Shown piece by piece: positions 12,068 through 16,946 of a stretch of 64,000 nucleotides of DNA. The notes under the pieces are model-generated. The model saw nothing but the letters and a program-made list of their open reading frames with translations, ran no database searches and was not told the origin of the DNA. Made by a program: the position numbers and the translations under genes. Every line of letters starts with the position of its first letter. The stretch's first letter is position 1. Origin of the DNA: Escherichia phage 241Ecol014PP; the sequence record OR062943.1. One strand, given 5' to 3'.

Positions 12068-12126
12068 TGTAAACATGGTCTCCCACCTTTTCTGGCGGCT
12101 AAGGTGTAAAAGAAAGCCACCCAGTG

Positions 12127-12200
12127 CCCTGTTAGCTTAGTGGATAAAGCAGCGGCCTTCTAAGCCGTTGACACTGGTTCGAGTCCAGTACGGGGTGCCA
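12127..12200 (+). tRNA. tRNA-Arg (anticodon TCT)
   Basis: Hand-folded cloverleaf: acceptor GCCCTGT/ACGGGGT, D stem GCTT/AAGC, anticodon stem GCGGC/GCCGT, loop CTTCTAA, T arm ACTGG-TTCGAGT-CCAGT, encoded CCA. Confidence 0.7.
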
Positions 12201-12330
12201 AGTTCTTTTTAATGTAGCTTACTTTAGCAGAGTAAATCTTCGGCAAGTGGCGGTAACCACTTTACCGATACCTCATAGTTAGTGGTGAGAACACTAGCTA
12301 TTTTAAAAAGAATTTAAATATTAGTATTTA

Positions 12331-12418
12331 GGTGAGTTAATTCCGTAGGGGTAGCGGGGCAGACTGTAAATCTGTTATCATTGCGATTCGGGTGGTTCGA
12401 CTCCATCACTCACCACCA
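12331..12418 (+). tRNA. tRNA-Tyr (anticodon GTA), long variable arm
   Basis: Acceptor GGTGAGT/ACTCACC, anticodon loop CTGTAAA, T arm GGTGG-TTCGACT-CCATC, CCA encoded. Confidence 0.7.
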
Positions 12419-12532
12419 AATTTATATTTTTAAATGCATAAATCATACAGATAATGGCATTGATATTTATCGTCGTTTATACTAGTCACTAACTGCTCGA
12501 AAATCAGTGTCATTATCAGTATTGTTTATAAA

Positions 12533-12623
12533 AGAGGGTAGGGAGCAATGGTGCTCAAGCGGTCTTGAAAACCGTCCCGTTGAGGATGACTCGATGATGG
12601 TTCGATTCCATTATCCTCTGCCA
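12533..12623 (+). tRNA. tRNA-Ser (anticodon TGA), long variable arm
   Basis: Acceptor AGAGGGT/ATCCTCT, anticodon stem GCGGT/ACCGT, loop CTTGAAA, T arm GATGG-TTCGATT-CCATT, CCA encoded. Confidence 0.7.
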
Positions 12624-12721
12624 TATTGTTGACCTTGTAATTAAGCGAAAGCCGGAAGCAGAACCGGATTATCAAATGTTACAGTCGTCATCGCCGACTA
12701 GCAACATGGTCAACATACTGA

Positions 12722-12818
12722 GCTAGGTAAGCCCTTTGGCAAGGGCGAGGATTTTTAATCCTGAAAATAGACGAGGTAGTCGTTGAATACATAGGTGGTT
12801 CGATTCCACCGCCTAGCA
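12722..12818 (+). tRNA. tRNA-like gene, non-canonical (about 97 nt); anticodon uncertain, possibly TTT
   Basis: Good acceptor (GCTAGGT/GCCTAGC), D arm and T arm (GGTGG-TTCGATT-CCACC), but anticodon arm has a 4-bp stem, the variable region is about 30 nt and no CCA is encoded. Confidence 0.35.
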
Positions 12819-12825
12819 CCTTTTT

Positions 12826-12901
12826 GCTGATGTAGCACAATTGGTAGTGCAATTGATTTGTAATCAATAGGTTGCAGGTTCAAGTCCTGCCATCAGCACC
12901 A
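12826..12901 (+). tRNA. tRNA-Thr (anticodon TGT)
   Basis: Acceptor GCTGATG/CATCAGC, anticodon stem ATTGA/TCAAT, loop TTTGTAA, T arm GCAGG-TTCAAGT-CCTGC, CCA encoded. Confidence 0.75.
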
Positions 12902-12902
12902 T

Positions 12903-12977
12903 GGCCCTGTAGCTGGAAGGTTCAAGCAAGCGACTCATAATCGCCAGACGGTGGTTCAATTCCACCCAGGGCCACCA
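12903..12977 (+). tRNA. tRNA-Met (anticodon CAT); initiator versus elongator not resolved
   Basis: Acceptor GGCCCTG/CAGGGCC, anticodon loop CTCATAA, T arm GGTGG-TTCAATT-CCACC, CCA encoded; D arm imperfect. Confidence 0.6.
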
Positions 12978-12988
12978 AATAATAAATA

Positions 12989-13411
12989 CTCCGCGTAGCT
13001 CAGCTTGGTAGAGATAATCAAAGATGCACAAATGCAGTCGTTGTGGGGAAGAAGATCCATGTAAATTTTATGGTCATAAAAAGACTATATGTGGGAAATG
13101 TCACAATGAGTACACCATGAATCTTGGGAGGCAGAAACGACAGTATGCTGTAGACAAGTTAGGCGGTAAATGTATCAATTGTGGGTTCGATAAATGGATT
13201 GTTTCTTTAGATATTCACCATTTAGACCCTAAAATTAAAGACTCTAAATTTGCTCAAATGAGAGGTTGGAGTCTGCAAAGAATTGATAATGAAATTAAAA
13301 ACTGTGTATTACTTTGTAGAAATTGTCATGCTGCCGTACATGCAGGACTTTTAGAACTACCATAACTTTGGGATCAGGAGGTCGAGTGTTCGAATCACTC
13401 CGTGGAGACCA
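12989..13411 (+). tRNA. tRNA gene interrupted by an HNH endonuclease ORF; anticodon not assignable
   Basis: 5' part CTCCGCG-TA-GCTCAGCTTGGTAGAG (12989-13014) and 3' part GAGTG-TTCGAAT-CACTC-CGTGGAG-A-CCA (13384-13411) have complementary acceptor strands, but about 355 bp lies between them. Confidence 0.45.
13024..13365 (+). CDS. HNH endonuclease (113 aa) inserted in a tRNA gene
   Basis: Cys-rich N-terminus, DIHHLDP...N...LLCRNCHAAVH HNH core; ATG is 4 nt after the tRNA D-arm. Confidence 0.6.
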   Translation: MHKCSRCGEEDPCKFYGHKKTICGKCHNEYTMNLGRQKRQYAVDKLGGKCINCGFDKWIVSLDIHHLDPKIKDSKFAQMRGWSLQRIDNEIKNCVLLCRNCHAAVHAGLLELP

Positions 13412-14232: not shown

Positions 14233-14516
14233 GAGTTGCTGCACTGTTTATTGTGTGCTTGTTATTGTGTGGGTGTGCAACCAGCGTTGAGAGAGAATAC
14301 AAGATTGACCCTCCAGATGTAGGAAGGTTGATTGTTAAACCCCCGGAAGGTGCCATGAAACCACCTGCTAAAGCTATACCTTTAAAGAAAGGTGCGCCAG
14401 ATGCGGTGAATTCTGGCATTATGAGGGATAATAATCTGTCTTGTAGCAATGATAGAGCTAAATTGATCATTTTGCAAGACTATATTAGAACACTGTTTCC
14501 AAAGGAGAGAGGTTAA
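14229..14516 (+). CDS. o-spanin (Rz1-like proline-rich outer-membrane lipoprotein)
   Basis: Signal plus lipobox (LLLCGCA) followed by Pro-rich mature region (DPPDVGRLIVKPPEGAMKPPAKAIP); separate ORF, not embedded. Confidence 0.65.
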   Translation: MRVAALFIVCLLLCGCATSVEREYKIDPPDVGRLIVKPPEGAMKPPAKAIPLKKGAPDAVNSGIMRDNNLSCSNDRAKLIILQDYIRTLFPKERG

Positions 14517-14941
14517 TGTCTAAGATTTACGGACCGTGTTCTGAAAAGCAGAAGATGATCCTAGAAAACGATGCAGATATTTTGGTAATCGGCGGTGCCG
14601 CAGGGTCTGGCAAGTCGTTCCTCTTGCAGTTGATGCCACTTAAAATTATTGATGACCCCCACAGCTCTGTGGTTATGTTCCGAAGAACAACCCCACAGTT
14701 GGAAGGTGAGGGTGGACTATGGCCTAAAGCAGTAGCTATTTATAGTGATCTGCCTGAAAACATTAAGCCAAAGTTCAGAGAGAAGGATCATAAGTTCATT
14801 TTCCCACGATTTGATCCGAGAACTGGCAAGTGGGATAGAAGCAAAAAGGGAGCTGTTGTAAAATACTGCCACATGGAGTATGTACAAGATAAGCTTAACC
14901 ATCAAGGGCTTGAGTACACCATGGTTTGCTTCGATGAGGGT
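14516..14941 (+). CDS. terL: terminase large subunit, exon 1 (ATPase domain)
   Basis: Walker A VIGGAAGSGKS; ends MVCFDEG (Walker B-like) directly before TAA and the intron. Exon boundary approximate. Confidence 0.65.
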
Positions 14942-15857
14942 TAATTTGTAGCTCTCGTAAAACCTCCCTAATTGCGGGGAAATCTTTATTATTGACACCA
15001 CCAACCTGTCATGGTAACATGATAGAGGCTTCGAAGAGAGATCGAAGGTATGGTAACAGTGTGTTAATTTAGATAATCCGCAGCGAAGCGTCCGAGAGGA
15101 TGAACGTTCAACGACTAGTCGAAAGACGTAGAATCAAGCGATTCGAAACGGGAGGGTGAATGTGTAATACTAAAAAATGTATGGATTGCCAAAGAGTTCT
15201 ACCTATTGATGATTTCTTTTTATCATCTAAGAGCAAGGATGGATACTCAGGTACATGCAAGGAATGCTATATGTACTACAGGAAGGGTGGATCTCGTAAA
15301 AACAAAAATATGGTTAAGAGAGATGACGCAGCATTGTTTATTCAAGACTTGCTGGAGAAAGGTGAACTTTTTGAATGCAAATCTTGTCATGAAAGTATGC
15401 TAGCTGATAGTTTTTACACAAAACGTGACTATGGTAAAGTATATCTGGTTACGAACAGGTGTAAGATGTGTGAAAAGTTTTATCAGATTGAGAAGAAATT
15501 TCACATAACAAAAGATGAATACTATCGTCTACTCTCAGATCAAGATCATAAGTGTGCCATTTGTAGAATATCCCTTGATGAGTATAGGACGCAAGGGTAC
15601 AGAGATTTCTTTTGTGTTGATCATGACCATAAAACTGGTGCTGTAAGAGGGTTGCTTTGTGATAAATGCAACAGAGCTTTAGGTTTCTTCCAAGAAGATG
15701 AGGAAACTATTCTTAGAGCGGCAGAGTATTTACACATTCATAAGATATAGTCTGGTCTGCATGGAGACATGCAGCTGCCTGAAAATGGCGGGGCAAGACT
15801 AGCGACCTTGCCCGAACATAAACGACACAATTCGAATGGGAGCAGATAGACTATCTG
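14942..15857 (+). mobile_element. group I intron with an HNH endonuclease ORF (boundaries approximate)
   Basis: P-like AATTGCGGGGAAA (about 14971), Q-like AATCCGCAGC (about 15075), R-like GTTCAACGACTAGTC (about 15106), S-like AGATAGACTATC (about 15845); 5' exon ends in U. Confidence 0.65.
15160..15750 (+). CDS. intron-encoded HNH endonuclease (endonuclease VII-like)
   Basis: Cys-rich zinc fingers and FCVDHDHKTGAVRGLLCDKCNRALG motif. Confidence 0.7.
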   Translation: MCNTKKCMDCQRVLPIDDFFLSSKSKDGYSGTCKECYMYYRKGGSRKNKNMVKRDDAALFIQDLLEKGELFECKSCHESMLADSFYTKRDYGKVYLVTNRCKMCEKFYQIEKKFHITKDEYYRLLSDQDHKCAICRISLDEYRTQGYRDFFCVDHDHKTGAVRGLLCDKCNRALGFFQEDEETILRAAEYLHIHKI

Positions 15858-16946
15858 ATGTCTCGTCTGCGATCTCAGTCAAAGTATCCATCAAGAATGG
15901 TTATCAGCTGTAACCCCGATTCAGAACACATGCTTGCCAAACTGGTTAGATGGTGGTTGGACGATGAAGGGTATCCAGATCCGGAGAAATGCGGTAAGAA
16001 AAGATATTTTATCCGACGCGACGGTGAATTTATCTGGGGAGACTCTAAAGAAGAGTTGATAGAGAAATACACCACGGTTAACGGACTGGGTGTGGAGATC
16101 AAGCCGAGACCGTTGTCATTCTCGTTTATAGGCGCAACAATATTCGATAATCCTGTCTGCTTAAGAGACAACCCAGAATACCTTGCTTTCCTTGAAGGTC
16201 TGCCGGAACTGGAAAAAGCTCAGCTTCTTCATGGTAACTGGTTTGCAAAGCCTGAGGGTGCAAACTATTTTCAAAGATCTTTCCTTCGTGATGCCGATAG
16301 AGTACCCCTTGGATCAGTATCTTGTAGGGCATGGGATAAGGCAGGAACCGAGAGAACTTCCGGTAATAAATTTCCTGACTTTACCGCCAGTGTTAAGGTA
16401 AGTAAAGATAGCGACGGCTTTTATTACCTGTCCGGTGATTATTGTCCTGAGAACGTGGATGACGGGAGGTATTCCACAGGTCTGGAAGGTAAGTTCTGTA
16501 AAAAGGCTGGTGAACGAGATGTGATCATCAGGAAACAGGCGCAGTTTGATGGTGACGATTGTATAATCGTATTCTCTGTGGACCCAGGTCAGGCAGGTAA
16601 GAGTGAGTTCTTAACCTCCTCCAGATCCTTACTCGCCGAAGGGTTTAGGGTTGAAGAAGACCCAATGCCTTCCAACAAATCTAAACTGACAAGATTCTCA
16701 CCTTTTGCCAATCTTGCCCAACAAGGAATGGTGAGGATTGTAAAATCCAGTTTCCATCCTGATACTCTGGAAGCATTTCTGACTGAACTTGAAAAATTCA
16801 ACGGGGAAAGATCAACATTTAACAGAAAAGACGACTGGGCCGACTGTGTAGCTTCTGCGATTAATTTCCTGGAGAAAGAGGAGGTAGCACTTCCTTGTGT
16901 GATTCCATCAATCTCATCACCTTCTATGTTCAAGCGTTTTATCTAA
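15858..16946 (+). CDS. terL: terminase large subunit, exon 2 (nuclease domain)
   Basis: Reading frame resumes after the intron; Asp-rich C-terminal region; true junction may lie a few codons upstream of 15858. Confidence 0.6.
   Translation: MSRLRSQSKYPSRMVISCNPDSEHMLAKLVRWWLDDEGYPDPEKCGKKRYFIRRDGEFIWGDSKEELIEKYTTVNGLGVEIKPRPLSFSFIGATIFDNPVCLRDNPEYLAFLEGLPELEKAQLLHGNWFAKPEGANYFQRSFLRDADRVPLGSVSCRAWDKAGTERTSGNKFPDFTASVKVSKDSDGFYYLSGDYCPENVDDGRYSTGLEGKFCKKAGERDVIIRKQAQFDGDDCIIVFSVDPGQAGKSEFLTSSRSLLAEGFRVEEDPMPSNKSKLTRFSPFANLAQQGMVRIVKSSFHPDTLEAFLTELEKFNGERSTFNRKDDWADCVASAINFLEKEEVALPCVIPSISSPSMFKRFI

What the first reader, a model, noticed from the sequence alone, without database searches (positions are those of the whole stretch)
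14516..16946. Large terminase gene split after the Walker B motif by a group I intron carrying an HNH endonuclease
The terminase ATPase exon ends at ...MVCFDEG with a U then TAA; the following 0.9 kb carries group I P, Q, R and S-like elements and an endonuclease VII-like HNH ORF, after which the terminase frame resumes. Packaging therefore depends on self-splicing.
Basis: partly seen in the sequence, partly recalled or inferred. Interest (0 to 1): 0.55.

Follow-up and report, generated by a model that had tools for sequence, protein, structure and literature searches.

The report
Known group I intron in terminase

Summary
The window is a Vequintavirus (rV5-like E. coli myophage).

- **Gene layout.** TerL exon 1 is 14516-14941 and ends ...MVCFDEG with GGU. 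The intron is 14942-15824 (883 nt, begins UAA, ends G). Exon 2 is 15825-16946.
- **Intron identity.** Rfam Intron_gpI matches at full length: 48.6 bits against a cutoff of 50, E = 4e-11. The score is lowered only by a 584-nt ORF in the P8 loop. The same intron without the ORF scores 84-85 bits in relatives.
- **Junction.** Phage nimi has an uninterrupted TerL that is 513/515 identical to the predicted spliced product, which fixes the junction to the base.
- **Endonuclease.** The ORF (15160-15750) is an Endonuclease VII-type ("DHHRN") nuclease with all catalytic residues intact.
- **Distribution.** The intron and its ORF are each present in some phages of the genus and absent in others.

Kropinski et al. 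2013 described "Introns in terminase" for rV5. GenBank records annotate the join, and a 2018 paper lists the near-identical JES2013 ORF as intron-encoded. Splicing itself has not been shown for this intron. Interest is low.

The parts
14516..14941 (+). TerL exon 1 (142 codons). Walker A is at 14594-14617 and Walker B (MVCFDE) at 14921-14938. The last base, U14941, is the 5' splice-site U.
   Evidence: Terminase_6N profile 2-104; phrog_979 and phrog_9526. Junction fixed against intron-less phage nimi.
14942..15824 (+). Group I intron, 883 nt. It begins UAA (an in-frame stop for exon 1) and ends with G15824 (omega-G).
   Evidence: Rfam RF00028: 48.6 bits, E = 4.4e-11. ORF-less orthologous copies score 84-85 bits. 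Exactly this segment is absent from nimi.
14936..14956 (+). P1. Exon GAGGGU plus intron UA (14936-14943) pairs with the internal guide sequence UAGCUCUC (14949-14956). The U14941-G14951 wobble sits at the splice site.
   Evidence: cmscan alignment, MFE fold, direct reading of the sequence.
14963..14968 (+). P3 5' strand, CCUCCC. It pairs with 15150-15155.
14972..15083 (+). P4 (14972-14979 paired with 15077-15083, the P and Q elements), enclosing P5 and a long P5 extension.
   Evidence: A compensatory C-G to U-A change occurs in the P5 extension in rV5 and APECc02.
15084..15106 (+). P6/P6a hairpin with a GNRA loop.
   Evidence: The window has G-U at 15090 where other copies have A-U. A GAGA to GAAA loop variant occurs in relatives.
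15107..15117 (+). R element: J6/7 plus the P7 5' strand (UUCAACGACUA).
   Evidence: alignment. P7 is pseudoknotted with P3, so the MFE fold does not show it.
15118..15144 (+). P7.1 (15118-15127) and P7.2 (15131-15144) hairpins, which are the hallmark of subgroup IA introns.
   Evidence: MFE fold. They appear as an insertion relative to the Rfam consensus. The subgroup assignment is my inference.
15150..15155 (+). P3 3' strand, GGGAGG. It also serves as the Shine-Dalgarno sequence of the endonuclease ORF, 4 nt upstream of the AUG at 15160.
15158..15739 (+). P8. The 10-bp stem GAAUGUGUAA (15158-15167) / UUACACAUUC (15730-15739) is formed by the first and last codons of the ORF. Its loop holds the ORF body.
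   Evidence: ORF-less relatives replace 15156-15739 with a different 20-nt P8 hairpin.
15160..15750 (+). Homing endonuclease gene, 196 aa. The N-terminal half is Cys-rich (four CxxC pairs). The C-terminal EndoVII/DHHRN nuclease motif is C132-x2-C, D154-H-D-H, R163 and C167-x2-C-N171. The stop codon lies inside the S element.
   Evidence: Pfam PF02945 at 2e-21. phrog_2633 at 3.5e-33. PDB matches to Hpy99I and T4 EndoVII. Motif positions. Exact match to WLY85575.1.
15742..15752 (+). S element: J8/7 plus the P7 3' strand (AAGAUAUAGUC).
15757..15813 (+). P9 hairpin (15757-15774) and a further 3' peripheral hairpin (15791-15813).
15825..16946 (+). TerL exon 2 (373 codons plus stop). It begins ACA CAA TTC (TQFEWEQ...) and holds the rest of the ATPase domain and the RNaseH-like nuclease domain.

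Best explanation
**What it is**
The window comes from a Vequintavirus (rV5-like E. coli myophage). Its essential large terminase gene is interrupted, one codon after the Walker B motif, by an 883-nt mobile group I intron at 14942-15824. I assign it to subgroup IA because P7.1 and P7.2 are present; it has no P2.

**How I infer it works**
- The late pre-mRNA folds into the ribozyme.
- Exogenous guanosine attacks after U14941, which is held in P1 by the guide sequence GCUCUC.
- The freed exon-1 3'-OH then attacks after G15824.
- The exons join as ...GAU GAG GGU|ACA CAA UUC..., giving a 515-aa TerL.
- Ribosomes translating unspliced RNA stop at the UAA that forms the first three intron bases.

**The endonuclease**
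The P8 loop carries a 196-aa endonuclease with the Endonuclease VII-type (DHHRN, His-Me finger) catalytic motif. By analogy with other phage intron endonucleases, it cuts intron-less TerL alleles during mixed infection. Repair then copies the intron, and some flanking exon sequence, into the cut allele (homing).

Its Shine-Dalgarno is the 3' strand of P3, its AUG lies in P8 and its stop codon lies in P7. Endonuclease translation and ribozyme folding therefore compete for the same RNA.

**Shown and inferred**
Shown here: the sequence and structure match, the exact boundaries, the presence/absence polymorphism and the intact catalytic motifs. Inferred: actual splicing, endonuclease activity and specificity, and homing.
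For: **Intron identity**
- Rfam Intron_gpI matches at full length: 48.6 bits, E = 4.4e-11; E = 2.6e-09 over the whole window.
- Orthologous ORF-less copies in JohannBauhin and rV5 score 84.3 and 84.9 bits, above the gathering score of 50.
- The MFE fold of an ORF-deleted mini-intron recovers P1, P3, P4-P6, P7.1, P7.2, P8 and P9.

**Boundaries**
- Phage nimi lacks exactly 14942-15824. Its contiguous 515-aa TerL is 513/515 identical to the spliced product.
- The spliced protein gives one continuous Terminase_6N match of 72.3 bits, against 25.7 and 28.1 for the fragments. It also gives a single phrog_979 stretch covering residues 1-513.

**Selection on the fold**
- Ten copies differ at only 1-4 of 299 ribozyme positions.
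- All helix substitutions keep the pairing: one C-G to U-A double change, two A-U/G-U wobbles and one GNRA-preserving loop change.

**Mobility signature**
- About 119 close relatives match the exons, 52 carry the intron and 29 carry the ORF.
- All five intron-plus alleles compared with the window have U at -1 and A at +3, as the window does. The intron-less allele has C and G.

**Endonuclease**
- Pfam Endonuclease_7 at 2e-21, with CxxC, DHDH, R and CxxCN all present.

**Literature**
- rV5 'Introns in terminase' (PMC3606486).
- The JES2013 EndoVII-motif ORF is listed as intron-encoded (PMC6083498).
- RT-PCR shows splicing of an HNH-carrying terminase intron in Vequintavirinae phage CB7 (PMC7344957).
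Against: - No experiment demonstrates splicing of this particular intron. The rV5 paper inferred it from BLASTX.
- The Rfam score in this window is 1.4 bits below the curated gathering threshold, and the default whole-window scan did not report it. The 584-nt insertion penalty explains this.
- P10 pairing between exon 2 and the guide sequence is weak and ambiguous by eye.
- Covariation support is thin because the copies are about 98-99% identical.
- The endonuclease's activity and target site are untested.
Confidence: 0.93

Rival explanations
1. The insertion does not splice. TerL is made as two separate polypeptides, an N-terminal Walker A/B fragment and a C-terminal fragment starting at an internal AUG, and these assemble into an active terminase. 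Aeromonas phage Aeh1 does this with NrdA, which is split by mobE.
For: - Many automated annotations call two separate 'terminase' ORFs here.
- The CB7 paper reports one HNH-associated insertion that did not splice, and cites the Aeh1 precedent.
- No splicing data exist for this intron.
Against: - A complete, conserved group I ribozyme is present, and its substitutions preserve pairing.
- The 11 codons at 15825-15857 lie upstream of the first AUG of the exon-2 ORF. They are in frame and conserved with uninterrupted homologs, so a separately translated fragment would lack them.
- No well-spaced Shine-Dalgarno precedes ATG 15858.
- The split falls inside the ATPase domain, between Walker B and the following motif.
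Confidence: 0.04
2. The intron is a decaying, splicing-impaired remnant, and this genome carries a crippled terminase gene. This could be a defective or assembly-derived sequence, or the window-specific G at 15090 could impair the ribozyme.
For: - The window differs from all nine other copies at 15090.
- The Rfam score is marginally below the gathering threshold.
Against: - The 15090 change turns an A-U pair into a G-U wobble in P6a, so pairing is kept.
- Every core element is intact.
- Near-identical intron-plus-ORF alleles occur in many independently isolated plaque-forming phages, such as the BASEL collection phages.
- The ORF is full-length and is an exact match to a deposited phage protein.
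Confidence: 0.02
3. The element is an intein, or a free-standing homing endonuclease gene sitting between two genes, and not an RNA intron.
For: The endonuclease has its own start codon and Shine-Dalgarno. Free-standing HNH genes do occur nearby, for example at 13024-13365.
Against: - Stop codons interrupt the terminase frame: UAA at 14942, and a stop at 15819-15821 just upstream of the point where the frame reopens. An in-frame intein is therefore excluded.
- The ORF-less form of the insertion still interrupts TerL with 319 nt of pure ribozyme scoring 84-85 bits.
Confidence: 0.01

Closest known systems
The terminase introns of Escherichia phage rV5 (ORF64ABC; Kropinski et al. 2013, PMC3606486) and the join-annotated TerL genes of BASEL-collection Vequintavirus phages (e.g. 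HeinrichReichert, MZ501073)
   Same: Same gene, same insertion site and an orthologous ribozyme at about 98-99% identity. HeinrichReichert has the identical architecture: an 883-nt intron containing a 196-aa 'putative homing endonuclease'.
   Different: In rV5 itself, intron 1 is the 319-nt ORF-less form. rV5 also carries a second 979-nt intron with a different HNH ORF (ORF65) at the site corresponding to window 16141|16142, which is vacant here.
Intron-encoded DHHRN (Endo VII-motif) homing endonucleases, the family defined around F-CphI of cyanophage S-PM2 (PMC6083498)
   Same: The CX2C...DHDH...R...CX2CN motif sits in the C-terminal part of the protein. That paper explicitly lists the ORF of Escherichia phage JES2013, which is 98.4% identical to this locus, as intron-encoded.
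   Different: F-CphI is free-standing, next to a psbA intron, and has been biochemically characterised. The ORF here lies inside the intron's P8 loop and is uncharacterised. Its N-terminal half has four CxxC pairs not described for F-CphI.
Phage T4 td, nrdB and sunY group IA introns with I-TevI, I-TevII and I-TevIII (from my own knowledge and the review PMC2988022, which was listed but not read)
   Same: A subgroup IA ribozyme with P7.1/P7.2, an endonuclease ORF looped out of a peripheral helix, and an ORF ribosome-binding site sequestered by RNA structure. The intron sits in a conserved catalytic region of an essential gene.
   Different: The host gene differs (terminase, not nucleotide metabolism). 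The ORF location differs (P8, not P6 or P9). The endonuclease family differs (EndoVII/DHHRN, not GIY-YIG or classical HNH).
[quoted passage not shown]
   Same: Group I introns interrupting a large terminase gene. The CB7 intron was shown to splice in vivo by RT-PCR and cDNA sequencing.
   Different: I did not test whether these are orthologous insertions at the same site. LL-H is an unrelated siphovirus and CB7 belongs to another genus (Certrevirus).

Membership tests
Group I catalytic intron (Rfam RF00028) | Conserved core (P3-P8 with P/Q/R/S elements) matching the family covariance model | tested here: met
   Full-length match to model positions 1-253: 48.6 bits, E = 4.4e-11. This is 1.4 bits below the gathering score, and only because of the 584-nt ORF in P8. 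Orthologous ORF-less copies score 84.3 and 84.9 bits.
Group I catalytic intron (Rfam RF00028) | The 5' exon ends in U, which forms a G-U wobble with the internal guide sequence in P1 | tested here: met
   Exon GAGGGU (14936-14941) pairs with GCUCUC, and U14941 pairs with G14951. All five other intron-plus alleles examined also have U here, and the intron-less allele has C.
Group I catalytic intron (Rfam RF00028) | The intron ends in G (omega-G), and its removal restores the reading frame | tested here: met
   G15824 is the last intron base. Exon ligation gives a 515-aa protein that is 513/515 identical to the uninterrupted TerL of phage nimi.
Group I catalytic intron (Rfam RF00028) | Guanosine-dependent self-splicing of the transcript | not testable with these tools
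   This needs in vitro transcription with GTP, or RT-PCR. The only analogous data are for the TerL intron of phage CB7.
Subgroup IA group I introns | Extra P7.1/P7.2 hairpins between the P7 5' strand and the P3 3' strand | tested here: met
   Two hairpins at 15118-15127 and 15131-15144 appear in the MFE fold, and as an insertion relative to the Rfam consensus. Naming the subgroup from this is my inference.
Mobile (homing) intron | Presence/absence polymorphism at a precise site among close relatives, with an endonuclease ORF in a peripheral loop | tested here: met
   Intron-less alleles (nimi, rV5_ev156), ORF-less alleles (JohannBauhin, rV5, RudolfGeigy, A147) and ORF-containing alleles all exist. 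Counts are about 119 relatives, 52 with the intron and 29 with the ORF.
Mobile (homing) intron | The endonuclease cleaves the intron-less allele and drives intron inheritance in mixed infection | not testable with these tools
   This needs cleavage assays and phage crosses.
Endonuclease VII / DHHRN His-Me finger nucleases (Pfam PF02945) | Profile match above the curated cutoff | tested here: met
   76.1 bits against a cutoff of 23.6, E = 2e-21, residues 110-192. PDB sequence hits to Hpy99I (1.6e-05) and T4 EndoVII (5.8e-04).
Endonuclease VII / DHHRN His-Me finger nucleases (Pfam PF02945) | Zinc and catalytic residues CX2-4C ... DHDH ... R ... CX2C-N, as defined in PMC6083498 | tested here: met
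   C132-A-I-C135, D154-H-D-H157, R163 and C167-D-K-C-N171.
Large terminase, T4-type (Pfam Terminase_6N + Terminase_6C) | ATPase domain with Walker A and B, plus a C-terminal RNaseH-like nuclease domain | tested here: met
   The spliced protein matches Terminase_6N at 72.3 bits (residues 25-294), Terminase_6C at 27.9 bits, and phrog_979 at 695 bits in a single stretch. Walker A (GAAGSGKS) and Walker B (MVCFDE) were read directly. There is no sequence-level PDB relative.

The most novel reading that the evidence does not exclude
The intron may be more than a passive parasite. The endonuclease's Shine-Dalgarno is the P3 3' strand, its AUG lies in P8 and its stop codon lies in P7. Ribosome loading on the ORF and ribozyme folding would therefore exclude each other. 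The intron could act as a switch that trades terminase production, and so the timing of packaging, against endonuclease expression. Alternatively, the EndoVII-type protein could moonlight in packaging, as some HNH proteins do. Both readings are speculative. RBS sequestration is already known for T4 introns, and the many viable relatives without the ORF or the whole intron argue against any essential role.
Probability: 0.1. Interest if true: 0.35.

Novelty: already known. Interest (0 to 1): 0.12.

Why it matters
The main consequences are practical.

- **Annotation.** Many GenBank records of rV5-like phages still list this locus as two 'terminase' fragments plus a 'recombination endonuclease VII'. 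Some attach the wrong names to the pieces, as in APECc02 and ECP26. The correct annotation is join(14516..14941,15825..16946) with an intron-encoded homing endonuclease.
- **Phylogenetics.** TerL is a standard marker for phage phylogeny and for predicting packaging strategy. Unrecognised introns and the co-conversion of flanking exon sequence can distort such analyses.
- **A possible study system.** The genus offers a natural series of alleles: intron-less, ORF-less and ORF-containing, plus a second intron site that may or may not be occupied. This could be used to study homing of an uncharacterised EndoVII-type endonuclease. That is incremental work, not a new concept.

Tried and rejected
- **Default Rfam scan of the whole window** at gathering thresholds found only tRNAs. 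The intron scores 48.6 against a cutoff of 50 because of the ORF insertion. It was recovered with the E-value threshold and validated on ORF-less orthologs.
- **Alternative junction.** Exon 1 ending in GG (14940) and exon 2 starting at G15824 encodes the same protein. I rejected it because group I rules require U at -1 and a terminal intron G, and the P1 pairing places U14941 opposite G.
- **ATG 15858 as the start of a separate C-terminal gene.** Rejected, because the 11 conserved in-frame codons at 15825-15857 would be lost.
- **Intein.** Rejected, because stop codons lie in the terminase frame.
- **P10 pairing.** Only 3-4 possible base pairs exist (exon-2 ACA or ACAA with UGU or UUGU in the P1 loop). 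This is ambiguous, so I make no claim.
- **PDB sequence search with the spliced TerL** found nothing, so Walker B could not be mapped onto a solved structure by sequence.
- **Exact look-up of the spliced 515-aa protein** found no identical entry. This is uninformative, since the source record probably annotates fragments.
- **Not done.** I did not build my own covariance model or run metagenome scans, because the existing evidence was already decisive.
Full report
**1. What is in the sequence**

The finding spans 14516-16946 on the + strand. ORF 14516-14944 encodes 142 residues. They carry a Walker A motif (GAAGSGKS, residues 27-34) and a Walker B motif (MVCFDE, residues 136-141), then Gly (GGT) and an immediate TAA. 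This ORF matches Pfam Terminase_6N profile positions 2-104 and the large-terminase PHROGs 9526 and 979.

ORF 15858-16946 matches the rest of Terminase_6N (profile 117-211) and Terminase_6C. It also matches phrog_979 positions 285-621. Between the two lies ORF 15160-15750 (196 aa), which matches Pfam Endonuclease_7 at E = 2e-21. The genes on either side are i-/o-spanins upstream and the portal gene downstream.

**2. Is the intervening sequence a group I intron?**

A default Rfam scan of the whole window reported only tRNAs. A sensitive scan of 14850-15950 gave a full-length Intron_gpI match (model 1-253) at 14932-15774. The score was 48.6 bits against a gathering score of 50, with E = 4.4e-11. 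Over the full 64 kb the E-value is 2.6e-09.

The alignment shows all four classical elements:
- P: AAUUGCGGGGAAA
- Q: AAUCCGCAGC
- R: GUUCAACGACUA
- S: AAGAUAUAGUC

It also shows a 584-nt insertion in the P8 loop, and that insertion is what lowers the score. The orthologous ORF-less introns of phages JohannBauhin and rV5 score 84.3 and 84.9 bits.

I replaced the ORF interior with a tetraloop and folded the resulting mini-intron. The MFE fold recovers P1, P3, P4/P5 with a long extension, P6, two hairpins between P7 and P3' (P7.1 and P7.2), P8, P9 and a further 3' hairpin. P7 crosses P3, so nested folding cannot show it. Its two strands, GACUA and UAGUC, are present. The P7.1/P7.2 pair indicates subgroup IA, which is my inference. 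No P2 is present.

**3. Exact boundaries**

P1 pairs exon GAGGGU plus intron UA (14936-14943) with UAGCUCUC (14949-14956). This puts U14941 opposite G14951, the canonical 5' splice-site wobble. The terminase frame reopens at 15822. The only junction that obeys the omega-G rule and keeps the frame is G15824|A15825.

The model is therefore exon 1 at 14516-14941, an 883-nt intron at 14942-15824, and exon 2 at 15825-16946, giving a 515-aa product.

An independent test confirmed this. A tblastn search with an 80-aa peptide spanning the predicted junction found phages rV5_ev156 and nimi encoding it at 100% identity in one uninterrupted piece. At the DNA level, nimi reads ...GATGAGGGC ACGCAGTTCGAA... 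and lacks exactly the 883 nt. Its annotated contiguous TerL (QHR73219.1, 515 aa) is 513/515 identical to my spliced product.

In silico splicing also restores the protein domain:
- A single Terminase_6N match of 72.3 bits over residues 25-294, against 25.7 and 28.1 bits for the fragments.
- A single phrog_979 stretch over residues 1-513 at 695 bits.

**4. The endonuclease ORF and its relation to the ribozyme**

The 196-aa protein has four N-terminal CxxC pairs. Its C-terminal part carries the full Endo VII motif: C132-x2-C135, D154-H-D-H157, R163 and C167-x2-C-N171. Its closest solved relatives by sequence are Hpy99I and T4 endonuclease VII.

These are the residues that define the 'DHHRN' homing endonuclease family (PMC6083498). 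That paper already lists the ORF of Escherichia phage JES2013 as intron-encoded. JES2013 is 98.4% identical to this locus.

The ORF is tightly interwoven with the ribozyme:
- Its Shine-Dalgarno (GGGAGG, 15150-15155) is the 3' strand of P3.
- Its AUG (15160) lies in the 5' arm of P8.
- Its first and last codons form the 10-bp P8 stem (15158-15167 with 15730-15739).
- Its stop codon (15748-15750) lies in the S element/P7.

A folded ribozyme should therefore occlude translation initiation, and translation should disrupt the core. This arrangement resembles what is described for T4 introns, from my own knowledge. ORF-less relatives replace 15156-15739 with an unrelated 20-nt P8 hairpin.

**5. Distribution and conservation**

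The window is a Vequintavirus. 119 phage records match this locus at 95-99% identity. Of these, 52 carry the 5' half of the ribozyme at 95% identity or more, and 29 carry the endonuclease at 95% or more. So intron-less, ORF-less and ORF-containing alleles coexist in the genus, which is the signature of a mobile intron.

rV5 and HdK5 have a second 979-nt intron, with a different HNH ORF, at the position corresponding to window 16141|16142. That site is vacant here. RudolfGeigy has ORF-less forms of both introns.

Ten intron-1 copies differ at only 1-4 of 299 ribozyme positions. Every helix substitution preserves pairing:
- C-G to U-A in the P5 extension.
- A-U to G-U wobbles in P6a (window-specific, at 15090) and in P7.2.
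- GAGA to GAAA in a GNRA loop.

All five intron-plus alleles I compared with the window have U(-1) and A(+3) at the junction, as the window does. The intron-less allele has C and G. This fits the P1 requirement and co-conversion, but the sample is small.

**6. Mechanism and rivals**

The best explanation (confidence about 0.93) is a splicing-competent mobile group I intron. TerL synthesis, and therefore DNA packaging, requires RNA splicing. The endonuclease promotes homing into intron-less relatives.

Splicing itself is inferred. The direct evidence available is for an HNH-carrying TerL intron of the related phage CB7, shown by RT-PCR and cDNA sequencing (PMC7344957).

The main rival is a non-splicing insertion with TerL made as two polypeptides, as in Aeh1 NrdA/mobE. 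Three observations count against it:
- The ribozyme is intact and conserved.
- The 11 conserved codons upstream of the first AUG of the exon-2 ORF would be lost.
- There is no well-placed ribosome-binding site before that AUG.

The stop codons and the ORF-less variants exclude an intein or a free-standing endonuclease gene.

**7. Comparison with what is known, and verdict**

Kropinski et al. 2013 (PMC3606486) has a section titled 'Introns in terminase'. It states that rV5 TerL is split into three segments, one intron containing a homing endonuclease. GenBank DQ832317 annotates the three-piece join.

The BASEL-collection records (Maffei et al. 2021) annotate exactly this architecture as a two-piece join with a 'putative homing endonuclease' inside. 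PMC6083498 lists the endonuclease family member as intron-encoded.

The feature itself is already known. What remains is better annotation, since several records mislabel the pieces, and experimental characterisation of the endonuclease.

Interest: 0.12. Novelty: already known.

Noticed in passing
window 16141|16142: Vacant insertion site for a second TerL intron. rV5 and HdK5 carry a 979-nt insert with a different HNH ORF exactly here (Rfam Intron_gpI 35 bits in rV5, below threshold). RudolfGeigy appears to carry ORF-less forms of both introns: its TerL is a 3-piece join spanning only 2135 nt.
   Followed up: partly
window 13024-13365 (+): A free-standing HNH endonuclease ORF of 113 aa (Pfam HNH 4.9e-05; phrog_2255 5e-27) lies directly downstream of the tRNA cluster. 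The Cys-rich N-terminus of the intron ORF hits the same phrog_2255, which suggests a shared zinc-finger-like DNA-binding module.
   Followed up: partly
window 12126-12977 (+): A tRNA cluster (Arg-TCT, Ser-TGA, Thr-TGT, Met-CAT). ARAGORN also calls an odd 99-nt 'tRNA-???' with a 4-base anticodon at 12722-12820. Rfam calls a tRNA at 12331-12415 (39 bits) that ARAGORN does not report.
   Followed up: no
GenBank MG0656xx records (e.g. L009 = MG065644.1): About 18-24 records named 'Campylobacter phage' (host C. jejuni) are roughly 98-99% identical to this E. coli Vequintavirus locus. The one record I opened, MG065644.1, is flagged UNVERIFIED. The host or label is probably wrong.
   Followed up: no
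L008 (ECP26, MK883717) and L010 (APECc02, KR698074): The product names look shifted by one gene, or misapplied, in these records. TerL exon 1 is called 'putative recombinase endonuclease'. In APECc02 the endonuclease is called 'terminase large subunit' and the o-spanin 'putative large terminase subunit'.
   Followed up: no
window 15160-15747: The intron ORF is an exact match to WLY85575.1 of Escherichia phage 241Ecol014PP (138,401 bp), which is probably the source genome of the window. Its 90% cluster has 115 members, including shorter 159-aa and 189-aa forms that are either different start calls or truncated copies.
   Followed up: no
window 14942-15155 (nt 131-214 of the intron): The P4'-P6-P7-P7.1-P7.2 core shares 75-90% identity over 50-90 nt with sequences in Bacillus (phiNIT1), Staphylococcus (PH15, phiIPLA5) and Vibrio phages, and in Pectobacterium phage Jarilo. 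In Jarilo the match lies next to an 'endonuclease VII' gene. These are presumably related subgroup IA introns in other genes.
   Followed up: no
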